Positions 5,038-32,000 of a stretch of DNA of 32,000 nucleotides are shown here, piece by piece (positions within the stretch are counted from its first letter, which is position 1; every line of letters starts with the position of its first letter). The DNA is from Candidatus Saccharimonadota bacterium (lineage in GTDB: Bacteria; Patescibacteriota; Gracilibacteria; UBA4473): positions 630,001 to 662,000 of the forward strand of contig OZ245819.1 of the NCBI GenBank assembly GCA_965228485.1. Direction: 5' to 3'. The position numbers and the translations under genes were made by a program. A model generated the notes under the pieces. It did no database searches. It was not told where the DNA came from and was given only the letters and a program-made list of their open reading frames with translations.

Positions 5038-5439
5038 ATGAACAAAAACAAGCCAGAAATATATTCATCCAAAAGCGTCATACTAATGGTGGTGCTTTTT
5101 TTTATTTTATTCTGGCTACTCTACTCTATTGGAAGCTTTTTGCACGAATCTCAGAAAATTAGTAAAGAAATCGAAGAAATCAGACAAACCAATCATAAAC
5201 TTTCCAAAGAAATACAAGCGAAAGAACGTTATTTAGAATATTTAAAAACCCCTCAAAGAATTGAGAAAGAAGCTAAAATGCAAATGGGAAAAAAACTTCC
5301 TGGAGAAAAAGTCATTGTCCTCGTTGAAGAGGAAATTGAAATCCTCCCAACCGAAGCCAAAAGAGAGGCTCGAGAAAAAATTTTAGAAGTCCCAAATTGG
5401 CAAAAATGGTATTGGATTTTCTTTGGAGAAAAAATCTAA
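5038..5439 (+). CDS. septum formation initiator (FtsB/DivIC-like) membrane protein
   Basis: Single N-terminal TM (VILMVVLFFILFWLLYSIG), then a coiled coil and the ..IEKEAKMQMGKKLPGEKVIV.. motif typical of FtsB/DivIC (ARE.LG...PGE). Confidence 0.7.
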   Translation: MNKNKPEIYSSKSVILMVVLFFILFWLLYSIGSFLHESQKISKEIEEIRQTNHKLSKEIQAKERYLEYLKTPQRIEKEAKMQMGKKLPGEKVIVLVEEEIEILPTEAKREAREKILEVPNWQKWYWIFFGEKI

Positions 5440-7076: not shown

Positions 7077-7263
7077 TTTTATCAAAAAAATAAGGTGTGA
7101 CGATATAATAAAAAAACACACTCAACAAAACAACTAAGAATAATCCAGACCAAAAAAAGTGAATAAGAGGAAGATAGGGCAACATCCACGACTGCAAAGG
7201 GTAAAGCCCTGGAGCCTGAGAAACATCTTGTGTTACGATTTCAGAAAATATTTCTGGTGTCAT
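7045..7263 (-). CDS. 72-aa single-TM protein, partner of HTTM-like gene (paralog of 25486-25650)
   Basis: Starts 1 nt after the HTTM-like stop. ..APGLYPLQSWMLPYLPLIHFFWSGLFLVVLLSVFFYYIVTPYFFD.. aligns by eye with the micro-ORF downstream of the second HTTM-like gene (..SIGLWPIQKFLVQYWEVIYVLWWSLFFATACGVIYFFIIRPYLQD). Confidence 0.6.
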   Translation of the reverse strand: MTPEIFSEIVTQDVSQAPGLYPLQSWMLPYLPLIHFFWSGLFLVVLLSVFFYYIVTPYFFDKNESKQKPKRK

Positions 7264-7264
7264 A

Positions 7265-8536
7265 TTAGTAGTAATAGTTAGGCAAAGGATATCCGACTTT
7301 CACCGCTCCTTCTTCGGGAAGCTTTATCCATAAGTTTCTTCTAAAAGGCCTATATTCTAAATCACAAGCATTTTCCTCATCAACAATCCGATAAAAAGAA
7401 TGCCCATTTATTGAATGATCTAACGCCCACTCTATACGATCAACTCCCGACTTTTCGCAGTATTTTTTCTTAATTGAAAACCAATAACGATACGGTGCAC
7501 AGCGAAAACGCGCATTCTGTGTCATCACCGTATTTTCAAAAGGCTCTTCCCCATTTTTGTATACTTTAATGTGTGAAATACATTGGTGATTCGCTTCAAA
7601 CATATAAAGTCCATAATAGTTTCCTTCTAGAGTCATTTTTTCATCTCCTGGAATAAAATGGGAAACGGCCTGCCCGAATCCAAGCAGCGCTACCAGCATC
7701 CATCCACCTAGAGTACTCCAGCCTTTTGGGGTTTCTGTATACTGATACCACGGTCCAAATAAAATTAGCAAGACAGGCATAACCGTCGCTGGATAAAAGT
7801 AGTGCACTAAAATGCCTGAATAAAGATGAAACACCACATAAAAAACAAAGGCTATTTTTTGCCAAATTCCAGACCTCCACATAAGAGCCCAAGCGCCAAG
7901 CATCTCCATCCCAATGACTAAATTTGTCCAGATAGGAGTAGACCAGTCTGGGAACACAGGTAACCCAGTACTCATACTGCTAAAGTAGGTCCCCAGAGTC
8001 CAACCTTCGTGTATCTTCACCGCTGTGGACAAGAAGTAAAACCATACCAGCATAAACTTCAGAAAGAAAATTTTATGCGGCAAAAACAGCAACACAAAAG
8101 TAAACAACAAATGATAATAATCATAATTTCCCGTATTTGCCATAGACAAAAAGCCAACCAAAAATAGTTTCCAGAACCATAACAAAGACATTAAAAAGTG
8201 AGCCAAGACCCATCTTTTTAGAACTATTGAATGAATTACAATGATCATCACGGCGAATAGCGCCATATACCAAATAGACTGAGAATAACCATTAGGCAAT
8301 CCCACAAGAAAGGCCGCATCTCCACAATTTTGCCAGTGAGGCCAGCAGAGATGATCTCCCATTTCTACAGCTGTTTTTGAATGCTGAAACACTCCTATAG
8401 AATGATCAAAGCTATTAAAAAACGTAAACAACATCGCTCCAAAAATCCAAACCAACAAAATATTGTTTTTAATTTCGTGAAGCGAGAAAAATTTTTCGTA
8501 ATTCTTAACGAAATTTTCAAAGTTAAAAATTTTCAT
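7265..8536 (-). CDS. HTTM / vitamin K-dependent gamma-carboxylase-like polytopic membrane protein, copy 1
   Basis: Paralog of 25656-26918. Landmarks are LCWPHWQNC, NYDYYHLLFTFVLLFLP, AVKIHEGWTLGTYF (K-x4-W-x2-G, as around the catalytic Lys of VKGC, recalled from memory), FHLYSGILV..LILFGPW, and a C-terminal domain with 4 conserved Cys. Start moved to MKIFNFENF (8536) by comparison with the paralog; this also removes the overlap with 8600-9100. Confidence 0.65.
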   Translation of the reverse strand: MKIFNFENFVKNYEKFFSLHEIKNNILLVWIFGAMLFTFFNSFDHSIGVFQHSKTAVEMGDHLCWPHWQNCGDAAFLVGLPNGYSQSIWYMALFAVMIIVIHSIVLKRWVLAHFLMSLLWFWKLFLVGFLSMANTGNYDYYHLLFTFVLLFLPHKIFFLKFMLVWFYFLSTAVKIHEGWTLGTYFSSMSTGLPVFPDWSTPIWTNLVIGMEMLGAWALMWRSGIWQKIAFVFYVVFHLYSGILVHYFYPATVMPVLLILFGPWYQYTETPKGWSTLGGWMLVALLGFGQAVSHFIPGDEKMTLEGNYYGLYMFEANHQCISHIKVYKNGEEPFENTVMTQNARFRCAPYRYWFSIKKKYCEKSGVDRIEWALDHSINGHSFYRIVDEENACDLEYRPFRRNLWIKLPEEGAVKVGYPLPNYYY

Positions 8537-18627: not shown

Positions 18628-21600
18628 TTATTGAAATGAAGCATTACCACTCGTCTCAAATCCAGGAGGTGGATCGTATGAAATTCGCTGATCAATTCTC
18701 ATAACAAATGAGTGTTTATTTGGATAACATGATCCTTCTAAATCTGTACATCGAGCTGCATTCAAATGGGTACCTCCTCCATTGAAGATAGGACTGTAAC
18801 GTCGAATATGATGTAGATCATATTTTTGCGCCACTGGGATACTCACAGATCTTCCCCATGGGTCTTGAGCATCTGGAAGCAGTTGAGCGCCTCCAAGGGT
18901 ATTTCGGGTTAATAATGCTCCAGTCTGAATCAATTGATTATTAAGATTCCCATTAATACTATCTCGGTCAAAATTCTCGCTAAATTGAGGATTATTTCTG
19001 CTTTCAGTTGTTGTCAGTGAACCATCTGCGAAAACCACCGCTGAGAAGAATTTTACATCTTTGTGGACAAAAATATTCCCTGTAGAGTTATAAGTCCCAG
19101 CAGACGGAGCACTTGGATCTGTATTAATAATCATAATTCCAAGAATATCATCTAGTCCTTGGTATCTTGTATCCCCGGCAATAAGAACATTTCCATCTTC
19201 AACAATGATAGTATGTTTCCCTCCGTTGATAATTTCTGGAACAACTTCAGTGGCTCCATTTCCAATTCTTACAATTCCACCTCGAACGTAAGTTACTCCT
19301 CCATCTTGAAGATTACTAAGATCAAGATCGAGAATACTTGAATTCTCTTGCGGTGCCAGCCCCCGAGTAAGCTCAAAGGCATTTCTTGTGGCTTCCTCGC
19401 GGATATCGATCTGAGTATTCCCTCCGAGGAACTGAGCCTGATCTCCAAGATCGGTGTCATCAGAGCTTATATAGATGAAGTCTTCGTCTTCAACCAATAC
19501 TCCCCCTTCGATATCAGCTCCTGCTGTTACGTAATCAAACTCAACACAACTACCAGGAGCTACAACATCACAAAGACATTCCTCTGGAGTCATTCCTTGA
19601 CAAGGAGGGATTGGTGGTGATGGACAAGTTCCTAAAATTTCACAAGGTCGTGGTGGTTCTGGAGTACAAAGACTTGGGAAGAGATCACATGGATCCGCTT
19701 CAGTACAAGTCTCTCCCGGCGGACAAGAAGGAGAACAGCCTCCTCCTACACACCCTGTTGGACAACTCCCTGGAACCGCACAAGCTGGACAAAGTTCAGG
19801 GAAAATACAAATATCCCCTGCCATTAATCCGAGATTATTTCCTGCGTAAACAAGATCCTCTCCATCTAGTCGGTATTTAATTTTAGAGGTAAATCCAGCC
19901 GCTAAGTTGGCTTGCCCTCCTGTTGGTCGAATATGGGTACAGACTAATTTTTCCGAATTCCAGTCTGAGATACCTGTAAATGGCACATTTCGACCATCTA
20001 CTGGAGTGGCTAAATCTTCATTATAGGTTTCCACATTTTCATCAATATGGGCCTTAATATTCACATCATAATTTACTGGAAGATCCTTTCCTGAATTTGT
20101 AGTTGTGGTGTAGGCATACAGACACTCTTCGGTATCAACTCCTACTTCCCATGGGGTAGAAGGCGGTTGATTATTTGGCCTATCACTTAAGAACAAAGAC
20201 ACCCAAGGATTAAAAAGGATTGGGACATCCATAGTAAAACTCTGACGAGTCCCTTGAACCACTCCTCGATTACTTACCATAGGGGAAGAGAGTTGTAGCG
20301 GCAGAGTCTTTGTAATTGGACTCATGAGTGCTGCACCGTTAATTCCTTCAATTACATTCACTGTTGGAAGAATCTCTCGTACATTAATTACTCGTGCACC
20401 ACTTGCTGGCGAAGACCAGTTAAGTTTATGCTTACCATCTTCTTTAGAGCCGCCTTGTAAACGCACTCCATTAAGATAATTATTCCCCATTTCAGTCACC
20501 ACATCATATGACCCTTCCGTATCCTGAGTTTGAGCAAAAGCGGTCATTGAAGAATTCTGAGCAATAACATTTTCAAAACGATCCTGAGTGATAAAACTCA
20601 CTTGACAAGCATCAGCAAGATTCGCGTATAAATCTCCATTTGTACAATTGTGATTCAAAGAAGATTCTGTTTGTGTTTTATCAGCTTCCGCAGGATAAAT
20701 CCGAATGTAAGCGGTTTGAATAGGATTGATTCGATTGTAGGCATTATCATAAATACGCACGGTAATTTTGTAGTTTCCTACTTGAGAGAAAATTGAGTGA
20801 TCTTCTCCATCAAACTTATATTGATTCACATTCCACTCAAAGCTATCTCCTCCCACAGGAGCCATAGTTGAATCTATGTAAGACTGTACAGGCCCACCTC
20901 CCAGACGTTCTATTTCTACATGAGATATTCCTAAATCCTCTAGGTCAGCGTTATTAAGTGCGGCAGCTTCCAAAGCTGCAATTTCATCTTGCAATGTACT
21001 AATCTGGCTATTTACATCCGTCAGTTGAGTATTGATATGGAACTGGGTAGCTCGATTATCTTGGATGGCTGTATTGTAGCTGGCATCCTGAGCAAGACTG
21101 TCAGCAATAATAGTTTCTCGACGACTCGTTCGGGAATCAATGTCATTAGTTGCATAGTCATCATAAACCGCTACCGCTTCACCAAAAACACCTGCTGGAT
21201 CTGTATCTCCATCAACCGTTGCAATGGCCTGACTCATTTGCGTCGCTCGACTAATTAATCCATTTATTTCTCCATAATCAAAAAATGGATCTAGGTACGG
21301 TGGCGGATCAACCGGTGGCGTTCCTAATGGTGGTGGATCAATTATAGAGTATCCTTGTAAGTCAGAAAGCGTCTGAGACACTCGACTGTTAAACTGATTA
21401 ATCCGAGTAACAGCCGTATTAATATGGCTTTCATGAGAACCCACCGCCGTAGGTGATAAGTCATGAATAAGGTCTGCAATATCGGTTGTAACCGTAAACC
21501 CAAGTTCCAAATCATCAATATTATTTCTTAAGCTTGGATCAAGTAGTGCAGTCTTATAAGGAACATAGAAATCGTTGTAACGATCATTAATAATCGTATC

Positions 21601-23079
21601 CATTTCGTCTACACTTTCTTCCCAATTCGGAATATAAAATGAATAATCTTCTACCTTACGAGCATTCCATTCATCTGAATAATTTCTGAGTGTATTATCA
21701 TCTGTCGTTGTACTGTCTTGTGGTGGGAGATTTGGAAAGTCAAAAACTCCTAATAGACTGTTGGTTTCCGCCATAGCAGTGTTTTTTCGAGTCTCAATAA
21801 AGTTCATATCAAAAGCTCCCAATTGGCTTCGAATAGAGCCTATACCACCAACACTATCAAATTTACTATCATTAATCTCAGAAACCACATCATTAAAGGT
21901 ATTTCTACTAATATTACGTGAAGCCAAATTTGCCGCTCTTGTTTCTAAATCGTCTAAATCTTGGATGATGTAAGAACTCGGGGCAGTAATATTTTCACTT
22001 ACCTTTTTCCAAAGATTCAAATTAAGGGTCATATTTGCTTTTACATAGTAGTTGGCAAGACGATTACCAATATCAAGAACCTCTTGAGCTAGTTGTTGAT
22101 CAAGGTTTTCTTGCAACTGATCCCGACGCTGCATCAACTGAAGTAGTTGACTTCTTTTCTGGCTAATTTCTTCACTCTCTACTACCTGATTCCAGTTAAG
22201 CCCAGACTCACAAGAATTACTTCCTCCTGGTCGATCTTCTACATCGATAAGCAAGAATAACGCCCCATCATCAGCTTTGAAACGACGAGGATTCCCTGCA
22301 GTCCCTTTTGACTCTGGTGGCATTCTCAATCCACGATGCTCAATCTGCATAACCCCATTAATCCGGGGAGCACCACGATCAATTAAGGCTGGAGGCGTTG
22401 TACAGTTTCTTGGCCCATTCCCTACTCGATCGTACATCGGAAAAGTTAATCGGTCTCCACATTTTGTAACCCTCTGCTTTGTATTATTCGCCTGACATCC
22501 TGCAGCATTTCTATCCTGAACGTTTCCCTGAATTGTAATTTGGTCACGACAAACCCCAAACCCATCTTTAAGAGTATTGGTTGTATAATTATATCGATCG
22601 TCAGCATAAAATTCGATTGAATCAGAGGCCCAAACACCATTAAGCCCTGTCGGCCATTCGTTAATTCCCGCACCAGTGTTTACAATTGGACACCGTGGTC
22701 GTGTTCTATCATAACGAATTGTCGCCGAAGCGGCTTCATTGACATTTTGACCAAAGTTATTGATAGTCGTTCTTCGAAAAACAACATTCCAGGTTCCTTC
22801 TGGTTTTTGCCCATTAGCATTAAGAGCTGGACTCTCAACAAAAGTCCACTGACCAACAGTCTGACTTCGGATAGGACCAACGGTTGTTACATCATTATTG
22901 GGAGCAGCACCAGATCGAACTTGAGCATTGATATTAAAATTCTGATTCTGTCCATTAATGGTACTATAAGTAGAATTACCATTCACTGGAGATACTTGAG
23001 CCAACAAGAACTCTGCTGAAGGCGAAGTTAATAGAAAAGATAAAACTAATAACGAAGCAAAAAATTTAGGTTTGTTCAT
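18628..23079 (-). CDS. giant secreted protein (1483 aa), Sec signal peptide, coiled-coil region, Cys/Pro-rich module; function unknown
   Basis: Uninterrupted 1483-codon ORF. Signal peptide MNKPKFFASLLVLSFLLTSPSAEFLLAQ. No C-terminal TM. The N-terminus is paralogous to the ORF at 31686. The start lies 10 nt after the stop of the 645-aa gene. Confidence 0.85.
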   Translation of the reverse strand: MNKPKFFASLLVLSFLLTSPSAEFLLAQVSPVNGNSTYSTINGQNQNFNINAQVRSGAAPNNDVTTVGPIRSQTVGQWTFVESPALNANGQKPEGTWNVVFRRTTINNFGQNVNEAASATIRYDRTRPRCPIVNTGAGINEWPTGLNGVWASDSIEFYADDRYNYTTNTLKDGFGVCRDQITIQGNVQDRNAAGCQANNTKQRVTKCGDRLTFPMYDRVGNGPRNCTTPPALIDRGAPRINGVMQIEHRGLRMPPESKGTAGNPRRFKADDGALFLLIDVEDRPGGSNSCESGLNWNQVVESEEISQKRSQLLQLMQRRDQLQENLDQQLAQEVLDIGNRLANYYVKANMTLNLNLWKKVSENITAPSSYIIQDLDDLETRAANLASRNISRNTFNDVVSEINDSKFDSVGGIGSIRSQLGAFDMNFIETRKNTAMAETNSLLGVFDFPNLPPQDSTTTDDNTLRNYSDEWNARKVEDYSFYIPNWEESVDEMDTIINDRYNDFYVPYKTALLDPSLRNNIDDLELGFTVTTDIADLIHDLSPTAVGSHESHINTAVTRINQFNSRVSQTLSDLQGYSIIDPPPLGTPPVDPPPYLDPFFDYGEINGLISRATQMSQAIATVDGDTDPAGVFGEAVAVYDDYATNDIDSRTSRRETIIADSLAQDASYNTAIQDNRATQFHINTQLTDVNSQISTLQDEIAALEAAALNNADLEDLGISHVEIERLGGGPVQSYIDSTMAPVGGDSFEWNVNQYKFDGEDHSIFSQVGNYKITVRIYDNAYNRINPIQTAYIRIYPAEADKTQTESSLNHNCTNGDLYANLADACQVSFITQDRFENVIAQNSSMTAFAQTQDTEGSYDVVTEMGNNYLNGVRLQGGSKEDGKHKLNWSSPASGARVINVREILPTVNVIEGINGAALMSPITKTLPLQLSSPMVSNRGVVQGTRQSFTMDVPILFNPWVSLFLSDRPNNQPPSTPWEVGVDTEECLYAYTTTTNSGKDLPVNYDVNIKAHIDENVETYNEDLATPVDGRNVPFTGISDWNSEKLVCTHIRPTGGQANLAAGFTSKIKYRLDGEDLVYAGNNLGLMAGDICIFPELCPACAVPGSCPTGCVGGGCSPSCPPGETCTEADPCDLFPSLCTPEPPRPCEILGTCPSPPIPPCQGMTPEECLCDVVAPGSCVEFDYVTAGADIEGGVLVEDEDFIYISSDDTDLGDQAQFLGGNTQIDIREEATRNAFELTRGLAPQENSSILDLDLSNLQDGGVTYVRGGIVRIGNGATEVVPEIINGGKHTIIVEDGNVLIAGDTRYQGLDDILGIMIINTDPSAPSAGTYNSTGNIFVHKDVKFFSAVVFADGSLTTTESRNNPQFSENFDRDSINGNLNNQLIQTGALLTRNTLGGAQLLPDAQDPWGRSVSIPVAQKYDLHHIRRYSPIFNGGGTHLNAARCTDLEGSCYPNKHSFVMRIDQRISYDPPPGFETSGNASFQ

Positions 23080-23089
23080 TCTCTAAATA

Positions 23090-25027
23090 TTATTTTCTAT
23101 AAAGTTTAATAGCACTCCAAACAAGAGACACCCCTACCATAAATAGGAATACTCCAACAAGCTTGAACCATAGTGGGTCTCTATTTTTCTGAGGTTCTAC
23201 AACCTCTGGCATCTCAGGTTCTTCATTTTTGGTTACTACTTCCTCTTCACCCTTATCTTTAAGTGTATTCACCAAATCATCAGACAAGGATTCTAATGCA
23301 CTTTCTGGCAAAACAGTATTTATCCCTTTCGCACTTATGTAATCTTGAAATTCATCAAACAAGATTCTTCGAGCACTATCATACTCTTCTTCGGTGATTC
23401 GACCATGAAGCTTCTTATTTTCAATATCAGCAAAATCCATCTTAAAGGTCTTGAATTGTTGTTCAAAAGCCTGAACTGTCGAGATTTTAGCCGCAAATTC
23501 TTTCTCTATATCTGTAATTTTTGAATACAATTCCTGGATGATAAGTGCATCTTCTTCAGCATCGATTTGTGCCTGAATTTCTGCAATTAAAGCATCTCGC
23601 TCATCAATCAAGGCTTGAATTTCATCATTCACATAACTTGTTTGAGAAATTTTTCGAAGACGAGCATCCATAATTGGAATCACTGCTCCTCCAAATTCCA
23701 TATCTTTATATTCAAGTGTTGATACATCTAGATTTGCAAGATCATCCGCCTGATCAACAATATGTTCTACATTCTCAAGTCTCTTTTGATAATCGATTGG
23801 ATATTCCATATATCTTCGATAGAAGGCATTTGACTCATCCTCTAGATCGAGGTTTTCGAAACCTCCATAATATCGACCGTAATTAGGAACTAAGGCAGCT
23901 CGAATCATATTCTGAACTGATTCATCTTCAATAGATTCGACCTTTTGAATAAGATCTAAAGGCACTCCATCATAAAGAGCTAGACCATCTCCAGAACCTC
24001 CAATAATCCCAAAATCTGTTTCATCGGATAATTGCTCATAAAGCTCCTGACGCATATTCGTAAAACTCTTATTTAGGTTTGCAGGATCAGTCATAAAATT
24101 ACGAGTATATTGAGCAATTTCAAAATCATTTAAGAAGCTATTTCCACTGTCATAACTTAAAAGGATTTGATTATAAACTAAAAGGACTGGACGCGTTCCG
24201 TCCTCATTTCTTTCTCGAGATAAAAAAGTATCACGCAATGTCGATCTCAAAAATTTATGATCATTTTTATCCTCGATGGTTTTATATTTAGCATCAGAAG
24301 CTTGCACATCGGTTCTCCAAAACAAATCTCGACTTACCTCTGTTTCGTCTTCACTAAAAGATTTCAGCACATATTGCTCCCCAGGAGTAAAAGTAAAGAC
24401 TCCACAACTCAAAAGATCTCCTCCGAAATCTTCCGATAAATGCTGAACAAAGACAATAAATTCTCGCATATCTCTATAAGGGTTTCCACCTGGAAAGTCC
24501 CTATTTGAAGCAGGATTTGGGTCTCTTGATCTCGGTGGATACTCAAAGGCATTTTGTCGTCCAAAAGTAACATAACGAGTATCAGTATAGTATCCGTTTA
24601 TAATTTCTTCTTCGCCATCATCATCTACATCACCAATTGAAGTCTCAACATCATCTTGGTAGGTAAGGATTCCTGACAAATTACGATTTGATTTTGCTGG
24701 CGTCAACTCGTAAGTGTAAACAGGCGAAACATTAAATAATTGATGAGGATAAAATTGAATATCATCCTGCAACATCGGAACAGGCACTTCGAAAGCCTTT
24801 ACAAAATCATCGTAAGTCGCAATTGAAAATTCTCCTGATTCAAGAGTTTCTCCCTCAGGGCCATTAATTTTTCTTACACTAGAAAAATCTAGATTAGCAA
24901 AAACTGCATCTGTTTTCATTTCTTCCTGCAAATTCATCAAGCAAGCTTGTTCAGGGGTAGTTTCCCGAGCTTGAGCCGTCACAAAAAGTAATGGCAATAA
25001 CCCCACCGCTAAACACAATCTATTCAT
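23090..25027 (-). CDS. 645-aa surface protein: signal peptide, DxDxDG-type loop, coiled coil, C-terminal TM anchor; paralog of 29611-31674
   Basis: Signal peptide MNRLCLAVGLLPLLFVTAQA; SIGDVDDDGEEEIINGYYTDTRYVTFG; heptad-like region IQALIDERDALIAEIQAQIDAEEDAL; C-terminal LWFKLVGVFLFMVGVSLVWSAIKLYRK. Collinear similarity to the 687-aa protein along its whole length. Confidence 0.85.
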   Translation of the reverse strand: MNRLCLAVGLLPLLFVTAQARETTPEQACLMNLQEEMKTDAVFANLDFSSVRKINGPEGETLESGEFSIATYDDFVKAFEVPVPMLQDDIQFYPHQLFNVSPVYTYELTPAKSNRNLSGILTYQDDVETSIGDVDDDGEEEIINGYYTDTRYVTFGRQNAFEYPPRSRDPNPASNRDFPGGNPYRDMREFIVFVQHLSEDFGGDLLSCGVFTFTPGEQYVLKSFSEDETEVSRDLFWRTDVQASDAKYKTIEDKNDHKFLRSTLRDTFLSRERNEDGTRPVLLVYNQILLSYDSGNSFLNDFEIAQYTRNFMTDPANLNKSFTNMRQELYEQLSDETDFGIIGGSGDGLALYDGVPLDLIQKVESIEDESVQNMIRAALVPNYGRYYGGFENLDLEDESNAFYRRYMEYPIDYQKRLENVEHIVDQADDLANLDVSTLEYKDMEFGGAVIPIMDARLRKISQTSYVNDEIQALIDERDALIAEIQAQIDAEEDALIIQELYSKITDIEKEFAAKISTVQAFEQQFKTFKMDFADIENKKLHGRITEEEYDSARRILFDEFQDYISAKGINTVLPESALESLSDDLVNTLKDKGEEEVVTKNEEPEMPEVVEPQKNRDPLWFKLVGVFLFMVGVSLVWSAIKLYRK

Positions 25028-25051: not shown

Positions 25052-25078
25052 AAAAAAAAGGCGCACTAGGCGCCTTTT
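25052..25078 (-). terminator. intrinsic terminator/attenuator between the 97-aa gene and the 645-aa gene
   Basis: The minus-strand transcript reads AAAAGGCGCC-uagu-GCGCCUUUUUUUU: a GC-rich stem GGCGC/GCGCC extended by A-U pairs, then an 8-U run. It sits 13 nt after the stop at 25091 and 25 nt before the ATG at 25027. Confidence 0.6.
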
Positions 25079-25090
25079 ATTAGATGATTC

Positions 25091-25384
25091 CTAGTTTCCT
25101 CCATCATCATCCCCATCATCCCCATCATCGTCTCCATTATCATTGTCAACCGATCGAAATTGGAATGTCTGGCCTGGGTCGCTGATGTTATAGGTCTGCT
25201 TTCCTGGACCAGCCCAACCATCAGGTGTATCTGTTGGGACTTGAATCTCTAAAGCTTTCGCTACTTGAGATGGCACCATGCACCCTGAACCACTTCCACA
25301 AAGCCAAAAATCGATGGCTAGGTAAAACAGCCCAACAGACGCACAGATAAGACCTGCGGCAAAGAATTGTTCTTTTCTACTCAT
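25091..25384 (-). CDS. 97-aa membrane-anchored small protein with Cys triad and poly-Asp/Gly C-terminal tail; paralog of 29296-29571
   Basis: MSRKEQFFAAGLICASVGLFYLAIDFWLCGSGSGC..DNDNGDDDGDDGDDDGGN. It shares an identical 12-residue core, CASVGLFYLAID, with the 91-aa paralog, plus conserved Cys spacing (C-x14-C-x5-C). Confidence 0.75.
   Translation of the reverse strand: MSRKEQFFAAGLICASVGLFYLAIDFWLCGSGSGCMVPSQVAKALEIQVPTDTPDGWAGPGKQTYNISDPGQTFQFRSVDNDNGDDDGDDGDDDGGN
25094..25147 (-). repeat. GAT/GGN trinucleotide-rich simple tract encoding the Asp/Gly tail
   Basis: The plus strand reads ..tcctccatcatcatccccatcatccccatcatcgtctccattatcattgtc.., including a tandem ATCATCCCC x2. Confidence 0.7.
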
Positions 25385-25485: not shown

Positions 25486-25650
25486 TTAATCTTGCAAATA
25501 GGGACGAATGATAAAAAAATAAATAACACCGCAAGCCGTGGCAAAAAATAAACTCCACCATAGCACATAGATCACTTCCCAGTACTGTACGAGAAATTTT
25601 TGTATTGGCCATAGCCCAATAGATGGTTCATCAAATATTATAGATTTCAT
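25486..25650 (-). CDS. 54-aa single-TM micro-protein, partner of HTTM-like gene (not in supplied ORF track)
   Basis: Hand translation gives MKSIIFDEPSIGLWPIQKFLVQYWEVIYVLWWSLFFATACGVIYFFIIRPYLQD*. It starts 5 nt after the HTTM-like stop (25656) and is homologous by eye to the 72-aa ORF in the same position after the other HTTM-like gene. Confidence 0.6.
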   Translation of the reverse strand: MKSIIFDEPSIGLWPIQKFLVQYWEVIYVLWWSLFFATACGVIYFFIIRPYLQD

Positions 25651-25655
25651 TGAAA

Positions 25656-26918
25656 CTAGTGATAATAATTTTTAACAGGATACCCTATGATTTTGGCTTC
25701 ATCAGGGAACTTGATCCATTCGTTATGCTTCCAAGCACTGTATTCCAAATTACAGGCATTAGATTCGTCAATTAAACGATAAAAAGGCCCTCCATTGATC
25801 GAGTGATCAAACGTCCACTCAATCCTATCGATTGTGTTATTAACACGACACCTTTCACGCTGCTGATACCAATATTTATAAGGATCACAGCGATGACGAG
25901 CTAATCGTCGTTGTTTCACTTTTTCTCGGACCTCTCCATCGGTGTAATAAATTTTAGCCTTCGAAACACATTGATGATTTGCCTCAAACATATAAAGACC
26001 AAAATAATTTCCTTCAAGTGTAAACTTCTCATCCCCTGGGATAAAATGAGACCAAGATTGCCCTAAACACATAACACAAACCACAATCCAACCTGGAAGT
26101 GTCGACCAACCTTTTGGAATTTTTTTATACTCAAACCAAGGCCCAAAGAGTATTAATAACATTGGTAATACAGTGGTTGGATATCGATATTCAACTAGTA
26201 CCCCCGAATACAAATGAAAAGCTACAAAGAATAAGAAAACTATTCTTTGAATATACGTATTCTTGTGGAATAAAAACCAAGCCGCAACCACTTCCATAAA
26301 CATAACAAGATTTGTCCAAACTGGAATCGACCAATCAGGGAAGATTGGCAAACCTGTATGCATAGCTGAAAAATATGTACCCAAAATCCAGGTTTCGTGG
26401 ATTTTTACGGCCACAGAGAGGAAGTAGAATAAAACTAAATAAAATCGTAAAAAGAAAAGTTTCTGTGGAAGCACAAGTAATGCAAGTCCAAAAATTACTA
26501 CATAGTATTCATAATTACCGATATGACTGAAGGAAATAAACGTCATCAATGCTTTAAATACCCAGAGTAACAACGTCAAAAAATGAGCCTCCCCCCATTT
26601 CCCAAGGGACATACAATAAATTATAAGAGCCATAACAGCCCACACTCCCATAAAAAACATTGTTTGGGTATAACCAAAAGGAAGTGCGGATAAAAAAGCT
26701 AAATCCGAACAGTTTTGAAAATATGGCCAACATAAACTCGCTCCTCTTGCAACGGAATCAACGGTGAACTCACTATTCCCGATCCATTTATTAAATGTTA
26801 AGAACAATCCCAGCAAAAAAGCACCAAAAGCCCATTTAAGGATTCTATCGTTTTCTATTTCTTCAACAGAGAAAAACTTTTTGTAGACCGCAAATATTCT
26901 TGAATTTATATTTTTCAT
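25656..26918 (-). CDS. HTTM / vitamin K-dependent gamma-carboxylase-like polytopic membrane protein, copy 2
   Basis: Same landmarks as copy 1: LCWPYFQNC, NYEYYVVIFGLALLVLP, AVKIHETWILGTYF, FHLYSGVLV..LILFGPW, EANHQC..RHRC..C..NAC. Confidence 0.65.
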   Translation of the reverse strand: MKNINSRIFAVYKKFFSVEEIENDRILKWAFGAFLLGLFLTFNKWIGNSEFTVDSVARGASLCWPYFQNCSDLAFLSALPFGYTQTMFFMGVWAVMALIIYCMSLGKWGEAHFLTLLLWVFKALMTFISFSHIGNYEYYVVIFGLALLVLPQKLFFLRFYLVLFYFLSVAVKIHETWILGTYFSAMHTGLPIFPDWSIPVWTNLVMFMEVVAAWFLFHKNTYIQRIVFLFFVAFHLYSGVLVEYRYPTTVLPMLLILFGPWFEYKKIPKGWSTLPGWIVVCVMCLGQSWSHFIPGDEKFTLEGNYFGLYMFEANHQCVSKAKIYYTDGEVREKVKQRRLARHRCDPYKYWYQQRERCRVNNTIDRIEWTFDHSINGGPFYRLIDESNACNLEYSAWKHNEWIKFPDEAKIIGYPVKNYYH

Positions 26919-27024: not shown

Positions 27025-28041
27025 ATGATTGAAGCTATAAAAAAACATCCGATATACCAAAAATTTTTTGAAATCAACCCCCAAATATTGCAAACCTTTG
27101 TTATTGGAAATCTGTTGATTATTGGCGGAAAATATTTTGGATTTGTTGATATTAGCTGGTTAAATATAGCGATTGTTATCGGTTTGTGCGTCGTTGTAGA
27201 TTACGCTTTTCGATGTGTTCAAAACAAAGAAACAAAATTTCCGCACTCTGCCGTTAACTCTGCTATAGGGCTCTGTCTATTCCTTAGAACTACAAGTATC
27301 CCTATTTATGTGTTTGCCGCCGTACTTGCGATCCTCTCAAAACACTTCATTCAGATAAAAGGAAATCATTTTTTCAATCCATCTTATACAGCCATCTTTG
27401 CCAGCATTATGATGTTTCCGATTGTAGCTTATGTAAACCCCCTCCAATGGCAAACTGGAAGCTGGACTGCTGTGGGAATCATTGCACTCCTTGGAAGTCT
27501 TGTGATGCTAAGAGTTGGAACTTTTGCCATCGTAACAGGATACTTTGTAACGTTCTATGCCTGGATCAAACTTTTTACCAGTCATTCATGGGACGATATC
27601 AAAATTCTATTCTTTTCGGGAAGCTTTTTTATTTTAGTTTTTCACGGACTCACAGATCCTGCCATTATTCCAAAAAGAAAATTACATCGACTTCTTTATG
27701 TAACTCAAATCTCAACATTGTTTTTCGTCTATCGCTTATTTATAAATGAAAATTACAGCTTTTTCCTTGCCTACTTTACGGTGAACTTCCTAGAAATGTT
27801 TTTCTGGAAACTTGAAAACTATGAGTCAAAAATTGGAAACTGGAGAACTATTACCCAAGGTGCCGTAACACTAATCTTTTTTGGATTAATGGTTAACAGT
27901 AGCTATAACCACACTCAAAAATACAATGGAGTTTGGCCTGAGCTACTTACAAATCGATGTATTCAGCCTATCTGTGACTCAAGAGAAGCTAGAGACAATC
28001 TAGACCTCCTCACACCATTTTTTCTTTTTGAAAAAGACTAA
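27025..28041 (+). CDS. polytopic membrane protein, tentatively NQR2/RnfD/RnfE-superfamily-like, copy A
   Basis: About 8-10 hydrophobic helices. Motifs KHFIQIKGNHFFNPSYTA and FHGLTDPAIIPK resemble the RnfD/NqrB FNPA and TDPxT.P motifs (from memory). Paralog of 28038-29045. Confidence 0.5.
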   Translation: MIEAIKKHPIYQKFFEINPQILQTFVIGNLLIIGGKYFGFVDISWLNIAIVIGLCVVVDYAFRCVQNKETKFPHSAVNSAIGLCLFLRTTSIPIYVFAAVLAILSKHFIQIKGNHFFNPSYTAIFASIMMFPIVAYVNPLQWQTGSWTAVGIIALLGSLVMLRVGTFAIVTGYFVTFYAWIKLFTSHSWDDIKILFFSGSFFILVFHGLTDPAIIPKRKLHRLLYVTQISTLFFVYRLFINENYSFFLAYFTVNFLEMFFWKLENYESKIGNWRTITQGAVTLIFFGLMVNSSYNHTQKYNGVWPELLTNRCIQPICDSREARDNLDLLTPFFLFEKD

Positions 28042-29045
28042 ATATCAGGTTCCCACTGACAAACCAATTCTAAACACCGGTTCGTTAAAATCTCTGGCCA
28101 GATGTGGTCATGTTTTAGGTAGTAATTAATACTTAATCCGGCCATAGCCACAAAAATAACAACCGTGGTTAGAGACTGCCAAAAAGTACGAGCATTAAAC
28201 TTCATAAATTGACGAGACTCAAGATGCCAAAATGGAATTTCCAAAACGGTTACAATAACATACCCGATAAGAATCGAATAATTTTCGTTCAAAAACAATC
28301 GACAAATAAAGAAAAGCATCGAAGCCTGAACTACGTACATCAATCTGTGAAGTCGTTTTTTTGGTAAAATCGCTGGATCGGTTAACCCAAAAAAGGCCAC
28401 AATAAAGAAACTTCCGGTTAAAAATAGAACCTGCAAATCACCAAAGGTATAAGTCGTAAAGAGATTAAGCCACAGGAAGAAAGTTAAAAAGTAAGTAAGC
28501 ACAACATCAAACAGCCCAACACGCATCATTACAATACTTCCAACCGCCGCAATAACTGCTAATATCCAAAGCCCTCCCCCACTCCATTGAACTGGATTGG
28601 TATAAGCCACAATTGGAAACATAGCCCAACAAACTAAAACAGCTGTGTATGAAGGGTTAAGAAAATGCCTTCCTTTTATACGAACTAGATGTTTCGTTAG
28701 AATAGCAACAATAGCGGCAAACACATATATAGGGAGGACGGCCGTTCTCAAAAAGAAACAAATTCCAATTCCAGAGTTAATGGCTGAAAGTGGAATTATT
28801 TTTTTGTTATAGAAAAAGTAGTGACACAAAAAATCAAAAATCGTAATAGAGGCAAACACCGCCAACATATCTATCCAACGAATCTCTACAAAACCCAGGA
28901 ATTTACCTCCAAACAATAACAAGAAGCCAATTGCAAAGTTTTGAAAAAATTGAGGATGAATTTTTCCTAGCTGCTCAAAAAACATCGGCTTACAAACATA
29001 GTCCCGAGTGTCAGGAAAGTAACCAGCAATCTTTTTAAGCGACAT
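28038..29045 (-). CDS. polytopic membrane protein, tentatively NQR2/RnfD/RnfE-superfamily-like, copy B
   Basis: KHLVRIKGRHFLNPSYTA, FFGLTDPAILPK and a C-terminal WPEILTNRCLELVC (copy A: WPELLTNRCIQPIC). Convergent with copy A; the stop codons overlap within CTAA at 28038-28041. Confidence 0.5.
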   Translation of the reverse strand: MSLKKIAGYFPDTRDYVCKPMFFEQLGKIHPQFFQNFAIGFLLLFGGKFLGFVEIRWIDMLAVFASITIFDFLCHYFFYNKKIIPLSAINSGIGICFFLRTAVLPIYVFAAIVAILTKHLVRIKGRHFLNPSYTAVLVCWAMFPIVAYTNPVQWSGGGLWILAVIAAVGSIVMMRVGLFDVVLTYFLTFFLWLNLFTTYTFGDLQVLFLTGSFFIVAFFGLTDPAILPKKRLHRLMYVVQASMLFFICRLFLNENYSILIGYVIVTVLEIPFWHLESRQFMKFNARTFWQSLTTVVIFVAMAGLSINYYLKHDHIWPEILTNRCLELVCQWEPDI

Positions 29046-29295: not shown

Positions 29296-29571
29296 ATGAG
29301 TCAACGAGAAAAAGTTGTCGGAGTAGGGTTTCTTTGTGCGTCTGTTGGTTTATTCTACCTAGCCATTGATTTATGGGTTTGTGGAAGCGATACAGTCTGC
29401 CAAAAAGAACACCACATCGCAAAAGCCATTACCATCGATTACGAAACTGAGGCCGATGATTGGTCTGGTCGTAATAAACCAAATTTTTACGTCAACTCTC
29501 CTGGGTTGAATGTATCCTTCCCTCCCCCACCATCAACTGGAGATGGTGATGGCGGCGGCGATGGTCACTAG
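29296..29571 (+). CDS. 91-aa membrane-anchored small protein with Cys triad, Pro tract and Gly/Asp tail; paralog of 25091-25384
   Basis: MSQREKVVGVGFLCASVGLFYLAIDLWVCGSDTVC..PPPPSTGDGDGGGDGH. Confidence 0.75.
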   Translation: MSQREKVVGVGFLCASVGLFYLAIDLWVCGSDTVCQKEHHIAKAITIDYETEADDWSGRNKPNFYVNSPGLNVSFPPPPSTGDGDGGGDGH

Positions 29572-31685: not shown

Positions 31686-32000
31686 ATGCATAAACACACA
31701 CAAAAGTTCATTGCTCTAGGCTATATCGCCATAAGTTTAGCGAGCTATGGTTCTGTGCAGGCACAATCTTTTAATTTCAGACTATCTGGAAACGTTCAGT
31801 ATAATGGAAGTCCTGCAGTAAATAGAAATTATAATGCCTCAGCAGAGCGTGGGCAGTACTTAAATAATAATCTCAACTCCATTGCCCCAACCGTAAGGAG
31901 TAATGCCATTGGTGGTAACGGAGGATTATCTACTCCAAGCCTAGCTCTTTCTGGAGCAAAGAAAGAAGGGAGAATTCCTGTTCAATTTAGCCGACAAATT
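31686..32000 (+). CDS. 5' part of a second giant secreted protein (continues beyond window; not in supplied ORF track)
   Basis: The ATG at 31686 lies 11 nt after the 687-aa stop, and the frame is open for 105 codons to the window edge. Hand translation gives MHKHTQKFIALGYIAISLASYGSVQAQSFNF.., a signal peptide. ..IAPTVRSNAIGGNGGLSTPSLALSGAKKEGRIPVQFSRQ aligns by eye with ..VGPIRSQTVGQWTFVESPALNANGQKPEGTWNVVFRRT of the 1483-aa protein. Confidence 0.7.
   Translation, partial: MHKHTQKFIALGYIAISLASYGSVQAQSFNFRLSGNVQYNGSPAVNRNYNASAERGQYLNNNLNSIAPTVRSNAIGGNGGLSTPSLALSGAKKEGRIPVQFSRQI

What the first reader, a model, noticed from the sequence alone, without database searches (positions are those of the whole stretch)
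25656..26918. Two HTTM / vitamin-K-carboxylase-like membrane proteins that keep the catalytic-lysine context
The proteins at 25656-26918 and 7265-8536 are clear paralogs; about half of the positions are identical by eye. They share five landmarks, in order. (1) A Cys pair in the first predicted external loop (LCWPYFQNC / LCWPHWQNC). (2) NYEYYVVIFGLALLVLP / NYDYYHLLFTFVLLFLP. (3) An invariant AVKIHE(T/G)W(I/T)LGTYF. (4) FHLYSG(V/I)LV...LILFGPW. (5) A ~110-aa C-terminal soluble domain with four conserved Cys. As I recall it, human gamma-glutamyl carboxylase has NHSYLY..LL, then the catalytic Lys218 in KKLDADWVEGYS, then YFHCMN. The K-x4-W-x2-G spacing is identical here. Bacterial HTTM proteins are poorly understood; SdpB in Bacillus toxin maturation is one of the few examples. 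Here the genes sit next to secreted or anchored proteins that could be substrates.
Basis: partly seen in the sequence, partly recalled or inferred. Interest (0 to 1): 0.7.

Follow-up and report, generated by a model that had tools for sequence, protein, structure and literature searches.

The report
Divergent vitamin K carboxylase-like membrane enzymes
Two paralogous membrane proteins of a candidate-phyla-radiation bacterium are very distant, unannotated relatives of the human vitamin K-dependent carboxylase that keep its quinol-activating lysine site but not its glutamate site, and their conserved gene neighbours suggest they modify small anchored peptides with Asp/Gly-rich tails.

Summary
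ORFs 25656-26918(-) and 7265-8536(-) are 54% identical paralogs with all five landmarks. An AlphaFold model (pLDDT 89) matches only human GGCX in the PDB (15 chains, E down to 4e-7; next hit E~1). A 114-sequence family profile aligns to a GGCX profile over 321 columns (HHalign 94%, E 1.3e-7).

By that alignment K172/W177/G180 = K218/W223/G226, H235 = H287, E209 = D263 and C63/C357 = the C99-C450 disulfide. The C-terminal domain corresponds to luminal subdomain PBD-1. The Glu-binding His160 is Tyr/Phe family-wide, and the second propeptide-binding lobe is missing.

In 79 related genomic loci (Patescibacteria; also Micavibrio- and Bdellovibrio-like MAGs) the gene is almost always paired or fused with a small one-helix protein. 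Frequent neighbours are a PRTase-beta-propeller protein, YcaO plus a SagB-like dehydrogenase, and anchored peptides with Asp/Gly(/Cys) tails. One such peptide (25091-25384) lies just downstream on the same strand.

Best reading: a quinol-dependent peptide-modifying enzyme at the outer membrane face, possibly an Asp carboxylase. The homology is solid; the function is inferred.

The parts
25656..26918 (-). GGCX-like membrane protein, copy 1 (420 aa): nine predicted TM helices plus a C-terminal beta-rich domain that corresponds to GGCX luminal subdomain PBD-1. Key residues: K172, W177, G180, E209, H235, C63, C70, C317, C344, C357, C389.
   Evidence: ORF. AF2 model pLDDT 89.4, pTM 0.89. Foldseek hits only GGCX. 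hhalign to GGCX Prob 94%, E 1.3e-7. Residue conservation.
25486..25650 (-). smTM partner of copy 1: 54-aa single-helix membrane protein that starts 6 nt after the GGCX-like stop codon (MKSIIFDEPSIGLWPIQKFLVQYWEVIYVLWWSLFFATACGVIYFFIIRPYLQD).
   Evidence: Read from the sequence and found by the downstream-ORF scan. The family HMM finds a homologue downstream in 52, fused in 10 and upstream in 7 of 83 family genes. The fused form models as a confident 10th TM helix.
25091..25384 (-). p97: small N-terminally anchored protein with the C-terminal tail DNDNGDDDGDDGDDDGGN. It lies downstream of copy 1 and smTM on the same strand and is a candidate substrate.
   Evidence: ORF. It has the highest Asp density of any ORF in the window. 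It is the only window ORF that meets the anchor + D/G-tail rule. Peptides of the same architecture occur in 32 of 80 related loci. The link is by architecture only: the DGpep HMM did not hit p97.
25056..25078 (-). Terminator-like hairpin (9 pairs, 5 G-C, T-run) just after the p97 stop. It would close a GGCX-like / smTM / p97 transcription unit.
   Evidence: Consensus scan; sequence read.
7265..8536 (-). GGCX-like membrane protein, copy 2 (423 aa). It keeps every motif of copy 1.
7045..7263 (-). smTM partner of copy 2: 72 aa, one TM helix, basic C-terminal tail. It starts 2 nt after the copy 2 stop codon.
5436..7121 (-). Phosphoribosyltransferase-like domain fused to a PQQ-like beta-propeller (561 aa), directly downstream of copy 2 and its smTM. 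It is the second most conserved neighbour of the family.
   Evidence: Pfam Beta-prop_ACSF4 2.3e-47, PQQ_2 1.8e-31, Pribosyltran 3e-4. A homologue lies within 10 kb in 49 of 80 loci, median distance about 0.
29296..29571 (+). Paralog of p97 (91 aa): N-terminal anchor and the tail STGDGDGGGDGH.
   Evidence: phmmer E 7.5e-21 to p97; translation.
27025..28041 (+). RnfD/NqrB-like membrane protein. It is a lineage-specific neighbour, not conserved across the family.
   Evidence: Pfam NQR2_RnfD_RnfE 6.4e-7. Homologues lie near the family gene only in L005 and L006.
28038..29045 (-). Second RnfD/NqrB-like paralog, convergent with the first and overlapping it by 4 nt.
18628..25027 (-). p645 (23090-25027; signal sequence plus C-terminal anchor) and p1483 (18628-23079; large secreted protein). 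They are syntenic only in the closest relative.
   Evidence: Neither has a credible Pfam match: p1483 has none and p645 only a sub-threshold DUF4533 hit.

Best explanation
SHOWN. Both genes encode members of an unannotated, highly divergent branch of the vitamin K-dependent gamma-carboxylase (VKGC/HTTM) superfamily. Each has a nine-helix membrane domain followed by one extracytoplasmic domain that corresponds to GGCX luminal subdomain PBD-1. A separately encoded single-helix partner (smTM) is fused to the C-terminus in some members, where it forms a 10th TM helix.

SHOWN BY ALIGNMENT. The quinol-deprotonation site of GGCX is kept: K172 = K218, stacking W177 = W223, G180 = G226, E209 = D263, H235 = H287. 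The disulfide that ties loop 1 to the outer domain is kept (C63-C357 = C99-C450). The glutamate-holding His160 is replaced by Tyr/Phe. The second propeptide-binding lobe (PBD-2) and the C-terminal domain are absent.

INFERRED. The enzyme binds a membrane quinol, probably a menaquinol taken from the host. The invariant Lys deprotonates it so that it reacts with O2 to make a strong base at the outer face of the membrane. That base abstracts a C-H proton from a peptide substrate that is not a Glu-rich Gla domain.

MOST SPECULATIVE STEP. The substrate is the Asp/Gly-rich C-terminal tail of small membrane-anchored proteins encoded alongside: p97 at 25091-25384, and 'DGpep' genes in other Patescibacteria. 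The chemistry would be carboxylation of Asp, as in the bacterial relative MloH, giving a polyanionic metal-binding tail. In many Patescibacteria the gene lies directly downstream of YcaO and a SagB-like dehydrogenase, so there it would be one step of a TOMM-like peptide-maturation pathway. The window's organism has a reduced version without YcaO/SagB in the 32 kb seen.
For: Homology
- AF2 models of the window protein (pLDDT 89.4) and of a 39%-identical fused member (pLDDT 92.4) match only GGCX chains in the PDB: 15 hits each, E 4e-7 to 4e-5, prob 1.0. The next non-GGCX hit has E about 1.
- hhalign of the 114-sequence family profile against 21 vertebrate GGCX sequences gives Prob 94.1%, E 1.3e-7 over 321 collinear columns (residues 74-405 against GGCX 105-505).

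Active site
- The alignments place K172/W177/G180/E209/H235 on K218/W223/G226/D263/H287.
- The roles of those GGCX residues are taken from PMC13187478 and PMC12647623.
- They are conserved in 104-109 of 114 representatives; position 209 is E in 84 and Q in 23.
- Topology agrees: the Lys sits at the outer end of TM5, ahead of a short cap, and the His sits in TM7.

Disulfide
- C63 aligns with C99 and C357 with C450.

Partner
- smTM is adjacent or fused in 69 of 83 genes.
- The fused tail is modelled with pLDDT 83-98.

Context
- The recurring order is DsbA / rhodanese-like / c388 / DGpep, divergent from YcaO / SagB / GGCX-like / smTM / PRT-beta-propeller.
- Pfam confirms YcaO at 7.5e-50.

Substrate hint
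- DGpep tails average 5.7 Asp, 10.2 Gly and 0.23 Glu in their last 30 residues.
- Cys in the tail tracks the presence of YcaO in the locus (21/23 against 5/16, Fisher p 1.4e-4), whereas Asp and Gly are always there.
- p97 lies downstream of copy 1 and smTM, and a terminator-like hairpin follows only after p97.

Precedent
- MloH, a bacterial VKDC relative, alpha-carboxylates Asp.
Against: - No biochemical data exist. All residue equivalences come from profile alignments, because the tools return no structural superposition. The two hhalign runs disagree locally around GGCX 287-300 and 391-404.
- His160, needed to couple epoxidation to carboxylation in GGCX, is absent. N159 and Y395 equivalents are poorly conserved. 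Carboxylation itself is therefore doubtful.
- Patescibacteria generally lack quinone biosynthesis and many are anaerobes (background knowledge). No quinone gene is in the window, and a VKOR-like gene was seen in only one related locus.
- p97 is linked to the DGpep class by architecture only; the DGpep HMM does not hit it.
- Enrichment of D/G-tail ORFs near the gene is weak against the local background, and no genome-wide background was available.
- The Cys/YcaO correlation is not corrected for phylogeny.
- Alphaproteobacterial and Bdellovibrio-like members lack the YcaO and DGpep neighbours.
- YcaO and SagB act in the cytoplasm, while the GGCX-like site should face outward. A shared substrate would have to be modified in two compartments.
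Confidence: 0.55

Rival explanations
1. Thiol-disulfide or quinone redox enzyme. The protein would use its quinone site and the conserved loop-1 Cys pair (C63-x6-C70) to oxidise or reduce exported partners, working as a DsbB/VKOR-like module for DsbA-like or DCC-like proteins rather than modifying a peptide C-H bond.
For: - DsbA-like thioredoxins occur in 11 of 80 loci, DCC1-like thiol-disulfide oxidoreductases in 10 of 80, and rhodanese-like genes in 10 of 80.
- HTTM-DCC1 fusion proteins exist in other bacteria.
- C63 and C70 are conserved in 109 and 110 of 114 representatives.
- Cys-rich exported proteins (c411, and the GGCX-like outer domain itself) are encoded alongside.
Against: - C63 aligns with GGCX C99, a structural disulfide partner of C450 (= C357) and not a redox-active Cys.
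- The DsbA and DCC1 genes are in a minority of loci, and none is in the window.
- The residues kept most strictly are the Lys/Trp/His of the quinol-deprotonation site, which VKOR- or DsbB-type chemistry does not need.
Confidence: 0.15
2. Non-enzymatic role. The protein would be a GGCX-fold membrane scaffold or chaperone that, with smTM, anchors, exports or assembles the neighbouring surface proteins. The conserved Lys/Trp/His would be structural or lipid-binding.
For: - Most bacterial HTTM proteins have no demonstrated chemistry. The linaridin HTTM protein, for example, is described as having an 'unclear mechanism'.
- The Glu site and the PBD-2 lobe are lost.
- The host lineage is not expected to make quinones (background knowledge).
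- The window copy lies beside large surface proteins.
Against: Conservation of a charged Lys inside the membrane-proximal pocket, together with W177, G180, H235 and E/Q209, in 104-109 of 114 representatives no more than 50% identical to each other, is typical of an active site. The same residues are catalytic in GGCX.
Confidence: 0.15
3. A true gamma-glutamyl carboxylase that makes Gla in the adjacent large secreted or anchored proteins (p645, p1483).
For: GGCX fold and the Lys218 context are present. p645 and p1483 are exported and sit next to copy 1, both in the window and in its closest relative.
Against: - His160 is never His in the 114 representatives examined, and N159/Y395 equivalents are variable.
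- The PBD-2 lobe that helps bind the propeptide in GGCX is missing.
- p645 and p1483 homologues accompany the gene only in L005, with weak p1483 fragments in three other loci, so they are not conserved partners.
- The conserved neighbouring peptides contain almost no Glu (0.23 per 30 residues).
Confidence: 0.07
4. The resemblance to GGCX is convergent or an artefact of comparing polytopic membrane proteins, and the family is unrelated.
For: Pfam, NCBIfam and a PDB sequence-profile search find nothing. The shallow-profile hhalign gave only Prob 1.9%. TM-scores are moderate (0.5-0.6, rmsd about 7 A).
Against: - Two independent models hit exclusively GGCX among 350,542 chains, with a gap of five to six orders of magnitude in E-value to the next hit.
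- The deeper profile gives E 1.3e-7.
- The match is collinear through both the membrane domain and the soluble domain.
- It lines up the catalytic motif with identical spacing and both Cys of the GGCX disulfide.
Confidence: 0.02

Closest known systems
[quoted passage not shown]
   Same: Nine-TM domain followed by an outward-facing beta-rich domain. It is the only fold match in the PDB and gives a significant profile-profile alignment. Shared features are the K-x4-W-x2-G motif at the outer end of TM5, the His in TM7, an acidic residue at the D263 position, and the disulfide from loop 1 to the outer domain.
   Different: About 14-15% identity, and no Pfam hit. The protein has 420 aa against 758. 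It has only the PBD-1 part of the luminal domain, with no PBD-2 and no C-terminal domain. His160 is Tyr/Phe, N159 and Y395 are not conserved, and K217 is Val. There are extra conserved Cys (C70, C317, C344, C389). A separate or fused 10th TM helix is present. The hosts are bacteria thought to lack quinone synthesis.
MloH, the VKDC-related enzyme of malonomycin biosynthesis (Streptomyces)
   Same: A bacterial member of the same superfamily that acts on Asp rather than Glu: it alpha-carboxylates an aspartyl residue. It is described as an HTTM region fused to an outer domain. It is a precedent for the Asp-directed chemistry proposed here.
   Different: Its substrate is a polyketide-nonribosomal peptide intermediate, not a ribosomal protein tail, and it comes from an actinomycete that makes its own menaquinone.
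Other bacterial HTTM proteins: SdpB (Bacillus), linaridin CrdG-type proteins, HTTM-DCC1 (YuxK-type) fusions with a DUF5819 partner
   Same: They are membrane HTTM-type proteins encoded in peptide-maturation or thiol-redox contexts. The DUF5819 case shows an HTTM protein completed by a separately encoded partner that has one TM helix. That parallels smTM and the DCC1-like neighbours seen here.
   Different: Those proteins are recognised by the HTTM/VKG_Carbox models; this family is not. Here the outer domain is fused and GGCX-like, and the partner is a 55-72 aa helix with no DUF5819 domain. The role of SdpB is cited from background knowledge only.
Thiazole/oxazole-modified microcin (TOMM) clusters such as microcin B17
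   Same: In 24-26 of 80 related loci, YcaO and a SagB-type FMN dehydrogenase directly precede the gene. Divergently encoded small peptides there carry Gly/Ser/Cys-rich tails.
   Different: No GGCX-like enzyme is known in TOMM pathways (background knowledge). The peptides are membrane-anchored and always Asp-rich. The window itself holds no YcaO or SagB.

Membership tests
VKGC/HTTM superfamily (Pfam PF05090 VKG_Carbox, SMART HTTM) | Match to the curated family HMM above its gathering score | tested here: not met
   No hit for either window protein even at E<=10 (Pfam, NCBIfam). 0 of 40 family members hit PF05090.
VKGC/HTTM superfamily | Significant profile-level sequence homology to bona fide GGCX | tested here: met
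   hhalign of A3 (114 sequences) against A2 (21 GGCX): Prob 94.1%, E 1.3e-7, 321 columns. Weaker with the shallow profile.
VKGC/HTTM superfamily | GGCX fold: nine-TM bundle plus outward-facing domain | tested here: met
   Foldseek against the PDB: the top 15 hits are all GGCX, E 3.9e-7 to 3.8e-5, TM-score (query-normalised) 0.51-0.59. Repeated with a second member.
VKGC/HTTM superfamily | Catalytic base Lys218 with stacking Trp223 | tested here: met
   K172 and W177 align with K218 and W223 in both hhalign runs. Conserved in 109 and 107 of 114. This rests on sequence alignment; no 3D superposition was possible.
VKGC/HTTM superfamily | Quinone C1-oxygen ligands His287 / Asn290 / Ser300 | tested here: inconclusive
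   H235 = H287 in both alignments, conserved in 109 of 114. The N290 and S300 equivalents differ between the two alignments, with S238 or a gap at N290.
Gamma-glutamyl carboxylases proper (GGCX orthologues) | His160, with Asn159 and Tyr395, holding the Glu carboxylate and coupling epoxidation to carboxylation | tested here: not met
   The position aligned with H160 is Y136 here and is Phe in 64 and Tyr in 41 of 113 sequences, never His. N135 is kept in 65 of 114. The Y395 equivalent is variable. Residue roles.
Gamma-glutamyl carboxylases proper | Propeptide-binding luminal lobes PBD-1 + PBD-2 and the C-terminal domain | tested here: not met
   The protein ends about 15 residues after the stretch aligned to GGCX 405-505. 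PBD-2 spans D508-V604 in GGCX.
Gamma-glutamyl carboxylases proper | Cys99-Cys450 disulfide between the TM1-2 loop and the luminal domain | tested here: met
   C63 aligns with C99 and C357 with C450. Conserved in 109 and 113 of 114. Disulfide geometry could not be checked.
Gamma-glutamyl carboxylases proper | Vitamin K hydroquinone- and O2-dependent epoxidase/carboxylase activity | not testable with these tools
   Needs biochemistry.
Pfam PF22777 VKGC_lumenal_dom | Match to the family HMM | tested here: not met
   Only 1 of 40 members, at E 0.087. hhalign nevertheless aligns residues about 295-405 to GGCX 386-505.
TOMM / azol(in)e RiPP gene cluster | YcaO cyclodehydratase, SagB-type dehydrogenase and a Cys/Ser/Thr-rich precursor in one locus | tested here: not met
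   Neither HMM hits anything in the 32-kb window. Both are present next to the family gene in 24-26 of 80 related loci. The tails of the window's peptides contain no Cys.
MloH-type Asp carboxylases | Sequence relationship closer to MloH than to other HTTM proteins; Asp substrate | not tested
Its function is cited.

The most novel reading that the evidence does not exclude
A previously unrecognised surface-peptide maturation pathway of ultra-small episymbiotic (CPR) bacteria and some predatory bacteria. A vitamin K-carboxylase-like enzyme with a split 10th helix would use host-derived quinol and O2 to carboxylate Asp residues in poly(Asp/Gly) tails of membrane-anchored ribosomal peptides. In many lineages this would run alongside YcaO/SagB azole formation on the same tails. 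The products would be polyanionic metal- or host-binding appendages. It would be the first ribosomal-peptide substrate for a bacterial VKDC relative, and evidence that CPR bacteria use quinones.
Probability: 0.15. Interest if true: 0.85.

Novelty: new variant of a known kind. Interest (0 to 1): 0.62.

Why it matters
Outside animals, vitamin K-dependent carboxylase chemistry has been demonstrated in very few cases. Most bacterial HTTM proteins have no known function.

This family has about 700 clusters at 50% identity and its members are labelled 'hypothetical' wherever a source names them. It is invisible to Pfam and NCBIfam, yet it retains the quinol-activating site of GGCX and has shed the Glu and propeptide machinery. 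It is therefore a natural minimal version of the enzyme.

It occurs in organisms believed to have no quinones of their own. A working quinol site there would imply that the cofactor is taken from the host.

The conserved gene set gives concrete candidate substrates and a partner subunit, so the function can be tested directly. That set comprises the one-helix partner, a PRTase-beta-propeller protein, YcaO/SagB and anchored Asp/Gly/Cys-tailed peptides. It also adds an unexpected enzyme class to YcaO-type gene clusters, which have so far only been flagged in CPR genomes by automated tools.

Tried and rejected
- Pfam and NCBIfam scans of both proteins found no relevant hit.
- A family profile searched against PDB sequences gave 0 hits.
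- hhalign with the shallow 40-sequence profile was not significant, against a single GGCX sequence or the GGCX profile (E about 0.03). The 114-sequence profile was needed.
- An HMMER profile search of 1.84 billion representatives found only 701 clusters. It did not reach the large HTTM family, so it gave no bridge sequences.
- The window's own protein is not on record in the contig index. The alignment-based locus search failed with A3 and worked with A1.
- RnfD/NqrB-like neighbours as functional partners: rejected. They occur only in the window, L005 and L006.
- VKOR as a partner: rejected. It was seen in one locus only.
- p645 and p1483 as conserved substrates: rejected. Full-length homologues occur only in the closest relative.
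- Alternative genetic code 25, considered because the nearest relative is labelled Altimarinota/GN02: rejected. All genes read intact with table 11, and the single TGA is a real stop.
- A composition-only test for enrichment of D/G-tail ORFs near the gene was weak: 64% against 46% within 3 kb.
- Literature searches found no description of this family or this cluster.
Full report
OBSERVATION. One is 25656-26918(-), 420 aa. The other is 7265-8536(-), 423 aa from the ATG; the mechanical ORF extends to a TTG at 8656. They are 54% identical over 411 residues (E 8e-166). Every landmark motif is present in both. I recalled the human GGCX sequence and confirmed it as 100% identical to PDB chain 13ib_A.

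IS IT A GGCX/HTTM RELATIVE? Pfam and NCBIfam give no HTTM/VKG_Carbox hit even at E<=10. Of 40 family members, none hits PF05090, and one touches VKGC_lumenal_dom at E 0.087. A family profile finds nothing among PDB sequences. All 536 homologues found carry no Pfam domain and are labelled hypothetical wherever a source names them; the named ones come from Patescibacteria.

Structure settles the question. An AlphaFold2 model built on 40 homologues is confident (pLDDT 89.4, pTM 0.89). It shows nine long helices followed by a beta-rich domain. Foldseek against 350,542 PDB chains returns 15 hits with E<=1e-3, and all are human GGCX (E 3.9e-7 to 3.8e-5, prob 1.0, TM-score 0.51-0.59). The 16th hit has E about 1. 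A second member, only 39% identical, gives the same exclusive result.

At the sequence level a shallow profile was not enough. A profile of 114 representatives no more than 50% identical to each other aligns to a 21-species GGCX profile with Prob 94.1% and E 1.3e-7. The alignment covers 321 collinear columns, residues 74-405 against GGCX 105-505. Homology spans the membrane domain and the first luminal subdomain.

RESIDUE MAPPING (from alignment, not from a 3D superposition, which the tools do not return).
- W177 = W223, which stacks on that Lys.
- G180 = G226.
- E209 = D263, next to the Lys.
- H235 = H287, which coordinates the water and Asn at the quinone C1 oxygen.
- Residue roles are from PMC13187478 and PMC12647623.

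These positions are kept in 104-109 of 114 representatives; position 209 is E in 84 and Q in 23. Model topology agrees: the Lys is at the outer end of TM5 before a short cap, and the His is in TM7.

C63 aligns with C99 and C357 with C450. In GGCX that disulfide links the TM1-2 loop to helix H1 of PBD-1. The C-terminal domain with four Cys is the homologue of PBD-1 (GGCX S405-V489).

Three things are missing:
- His160, which holds the Glu carboxylate and couples epoxidation to carboxylation. It is Tyr here and Phe/Tyr across the 114 representatives examined, never His.
- Conserved equivalents of N159 and Y395.
- PBD-2 and the C-terminal domain. The protein ends shortly after PBD-1.

GENOMIC CONTEXT. 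I fetched 79 loci from species-representative genomes, plus four from metagenome contigs. I clustered all neighbouring ORFs.

1. A 55-72 aa one-helix protein (smTM) is the most conserved neighbour. It has an L-x-G-N-x-P...Q segment, a TM helix and a basic tail.
   - It follows the gene within a few nucleotides in 52 of 83 genes, is fused to its C-terminus in 10, and lies just upstream in 7.
   - Both window copies have one: 25486-25650 and 7045-7263.
   - The fused form models with pLDDT 83-98 for the tail and a helix at 461-488. smTM is therefore best read as an integral 10th TM helix and subunit.
2. A phosphoribosyltransferase-like domain fused to a PQQ-type beta-propeller occurs in 49 of 80 loci, usually adjacent. 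In the window it is 5436-7121.
3. YcaO (26 of 80; Pfam E 7.5e-50) and a SagB-like nitroreductase-family protein (24 of 80) lie directly upstream on the same strand.
4. Small N-terminally anchored peptides ('DGpep') occur in 32 of 80 loci. They have an AHAD(A/V)P motif and a Gly/Asp(/Cys/Ser)-rich tail. An unannotated anchored protein (c388) always follows them, often with DsbA-like and rhodanese-like genes.
5. The recurrent map is: rhodanese-like, DsbA, c388, DGpep on one strand; YcaO, SagB, GGCX-like, smTM, PRT-propeller on the other.
6. DCC1-like oxidoreductases (10 of 80) and a Cys/His-rich anchored protein (c411, 22 of 80) also recur.

DGpep tails average 5.7 Asp, 10.2 Gly and 0.23 Glu in their last 30 residues. 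Cys in the tail goes with YcaO in the locus (21/23 against 5/16, Fisher p 1.4e-4, not corrected for phylogeny). Asp and Gly are constant.

THE WINDOW'S VERSION. Copy 2 has the common core: GGCX-like, smTM, PRT-propeller. Copy 1 is followed by smTM and then by p97 (25091-25384). p97 is an anchored 97-aa protein ending in DNDNGDDDGDDGDDDGGN. A good terminator-like hairpin comes only after p97 (25078-25056).

A p97 paralog ending in GDGDGGGDGH lies at 29296-29571. Neither tail has Cys, and no YcaO or SagB is in the window. That fits the correlation above.

p97 matches the DGpep class by architecture only, not by HMM. The RnfD/NqrB-like genes next to copy 1, and the large proteins p645 and p1483, accompany the gene only in the closest relative, an Altimarinota MAG with 58% identity. 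They are not general partners.

MECHANISM. Shown: superfamily membership, retention of the Lys/Trp/His quinol site, loss of the Glu site and of PBD-2, an obligatory one-helix partner, and a conserved peptide-maturation-like neighbourhood.

Inferred: the enzyme binds a quinol and uses the Lys to start its reaction with O2. The strong base that results acts on a peptide at the outer face of the membrane.

Most speculative: the substrates are the Asp/Gly tails and the reaction is Asp carboxylation. The precedent is MloH, a bacterial VKDC relative that alpha-carboxylates Asp.

Counter-arguments: no His160; no known quinone source in Patescibacteria (background knowledge); only one VKOR-like neighbour; weak local enrichment statistics for D/G-tail ORFs; and the different compartments in which YcaO/SagB and a GGCX-like site would act.

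Rivals: a DsbB/VKOR-like thiol-redox role; a non-catalytic scaffold; true Glu carboxylation of the large neighbours; no homology at all. I rate these 0.15, 0.15, 0.07 and 0.02.

COMPARISON AND NOVELTY. The family belongs to the VKGC/HTTM superfamily by fold and by profile homology. It fails the curated HMMs and fails two features that define carboxylases proper, His160 and PBD-2. I therefore do not file it as a GGCX orthologue.

The closest functional analogues are MloH and the poorly understood bacterial HTTM proteins: SdpB, linaridin CrdG, and HTTM-DCC1 fusions with a DUF5819 partner.

New here are the minimal architecture with a split 10th helix, the taxonomic range, and the linkage to YcaO/SagB and Asp/Gly-tailed anchored peptides. 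The range covers Patescibacteria plus MAGs labelled Micavibrio, Rickettsiales and Pseudobdellovibrionaceae. I found no paper that describes the family or the cluster.

Verdict: a real feature and a new variant of a known kind. Homology is near certain; function is inferred. Interest 0.62.

Noticed in passing
window 29296-29571(+), 29611-31674(+), 31686-32000(+) versus 25091-25384(-), 23090-25027(-), 18628-23079(-): The three-gene module p97 / p645 / p1483 (small anchored D/G-tail peptide, ~650-aa anchored protein, ~1480-aa secreted protein) is present twice in inverted orientation. The two copies flank the GGCX-like gene, smTM and the two RnfD-like genes (phmmer E 7.5e-21, about 1e-113 and 7e-4).
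   Followed up: partly
window 27025-28041(+) and 28038-29045(-): Two paralogous stand-alone RnfD/NqrB-like membrane proteins (Pfam NQR2_RnfD_RnfE 6.4e-7 and 4.1e-5), convergent and overlapping by 4 nt. No other Rnf/Nqr subunit is in the window. Homologues lie near the GGCX-like gene only in L005 and L006. Their function without the rest of the complex is unexplained.
   Followed up: partly
L005-L083 (record titles); P0393: Besides Patescibacteria, the family occurs in MAGs labelled Micavibrio, Micavibrionaceae, Rickettsiales, Alphaproteobacteria, Pseudobdellovibrionaceae and Bdellovibrionales. These are mostly epibiotic predators or obligate associates. In them the YcaO and DGpep neighbours are absent, and where smTM is found it usually lies upstream rather than downstream.
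   Followed up: partly
related loci, e.g. L049 611-8670, L056 4926-11934, L048 6271-13219: A recurrent Patescibacteria cluster: rhodanese-like, DsbA-like, c388 and DGpep, divergent from YcaO, SagB-like, GGCX-like, smTM and PRT-beta-propeller. Two recurrent anchored families have no Pfam match: c388, and c411, which is Cys/His-rich with repeated C..G.FHG(V/L)G-like motifs.
   Followed up: partly
DGpep ORFs in 32 loci, e.g. L048 7403-7666(-): The anchored peptides share a conserved (V)AHAD(A/V)P motif about 20 residues after the TM helix and ahead of the variable Gly/Asp/Cys tail. It could be a recognition or cleavage site. The window's p97 proteins lack this exact motif.
   Followed up: no
window 11833-12744(-): A single ORF combines a riboflavin kinase domain (3.7e-28) with a 5-formyltetrahydrofolate cyclo-ligase domain (1.3e-27), an unusual fusion.
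   Followed up: no
window 8600-9100(+): A DtxR-type iron-dependent repressor-like protein is encoded divergently from GGCX-like copy 2. Its start overlaps the mechanical TTG extension of that ORF.
   Followed up: no
window 17-328(+) and 394-3027(+): A 103-aa ORF is related (E 5e-17) to part of the following 877-aa protein. Neither has a significant Pfam match.
   Followed up: no
window, 26 ORFs: Stop codon usage is TAA 15, TAG 10, TGA 1 at 38% GC. The only TGA stop is that of smTM 7045-7263. Table 11 reads all genes intact, even though the nearest relative is labelled Altimarinota (GN02).
   Followed up: yes
L005 599-1849(-) and 1-599(-); L037, L038, L044, L058: Several genomes carry tandem or multiple copies of the GGCX-like gene. 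The Altimarinota relative has at least three or four (L005 x3, L014). The window's two copies (54% identical) derive from an old duplication: copy 1 is closer to the L005 main copy (58%) and shares its synteny.
   Followed up: partly
L027, L029: Contigs labelled 'uncultured Methanosarcinales archaeon' carry typical family genes with smTM and the PRT-propeller. These are probably mis-binned CPR contigs.
   Followed up: no
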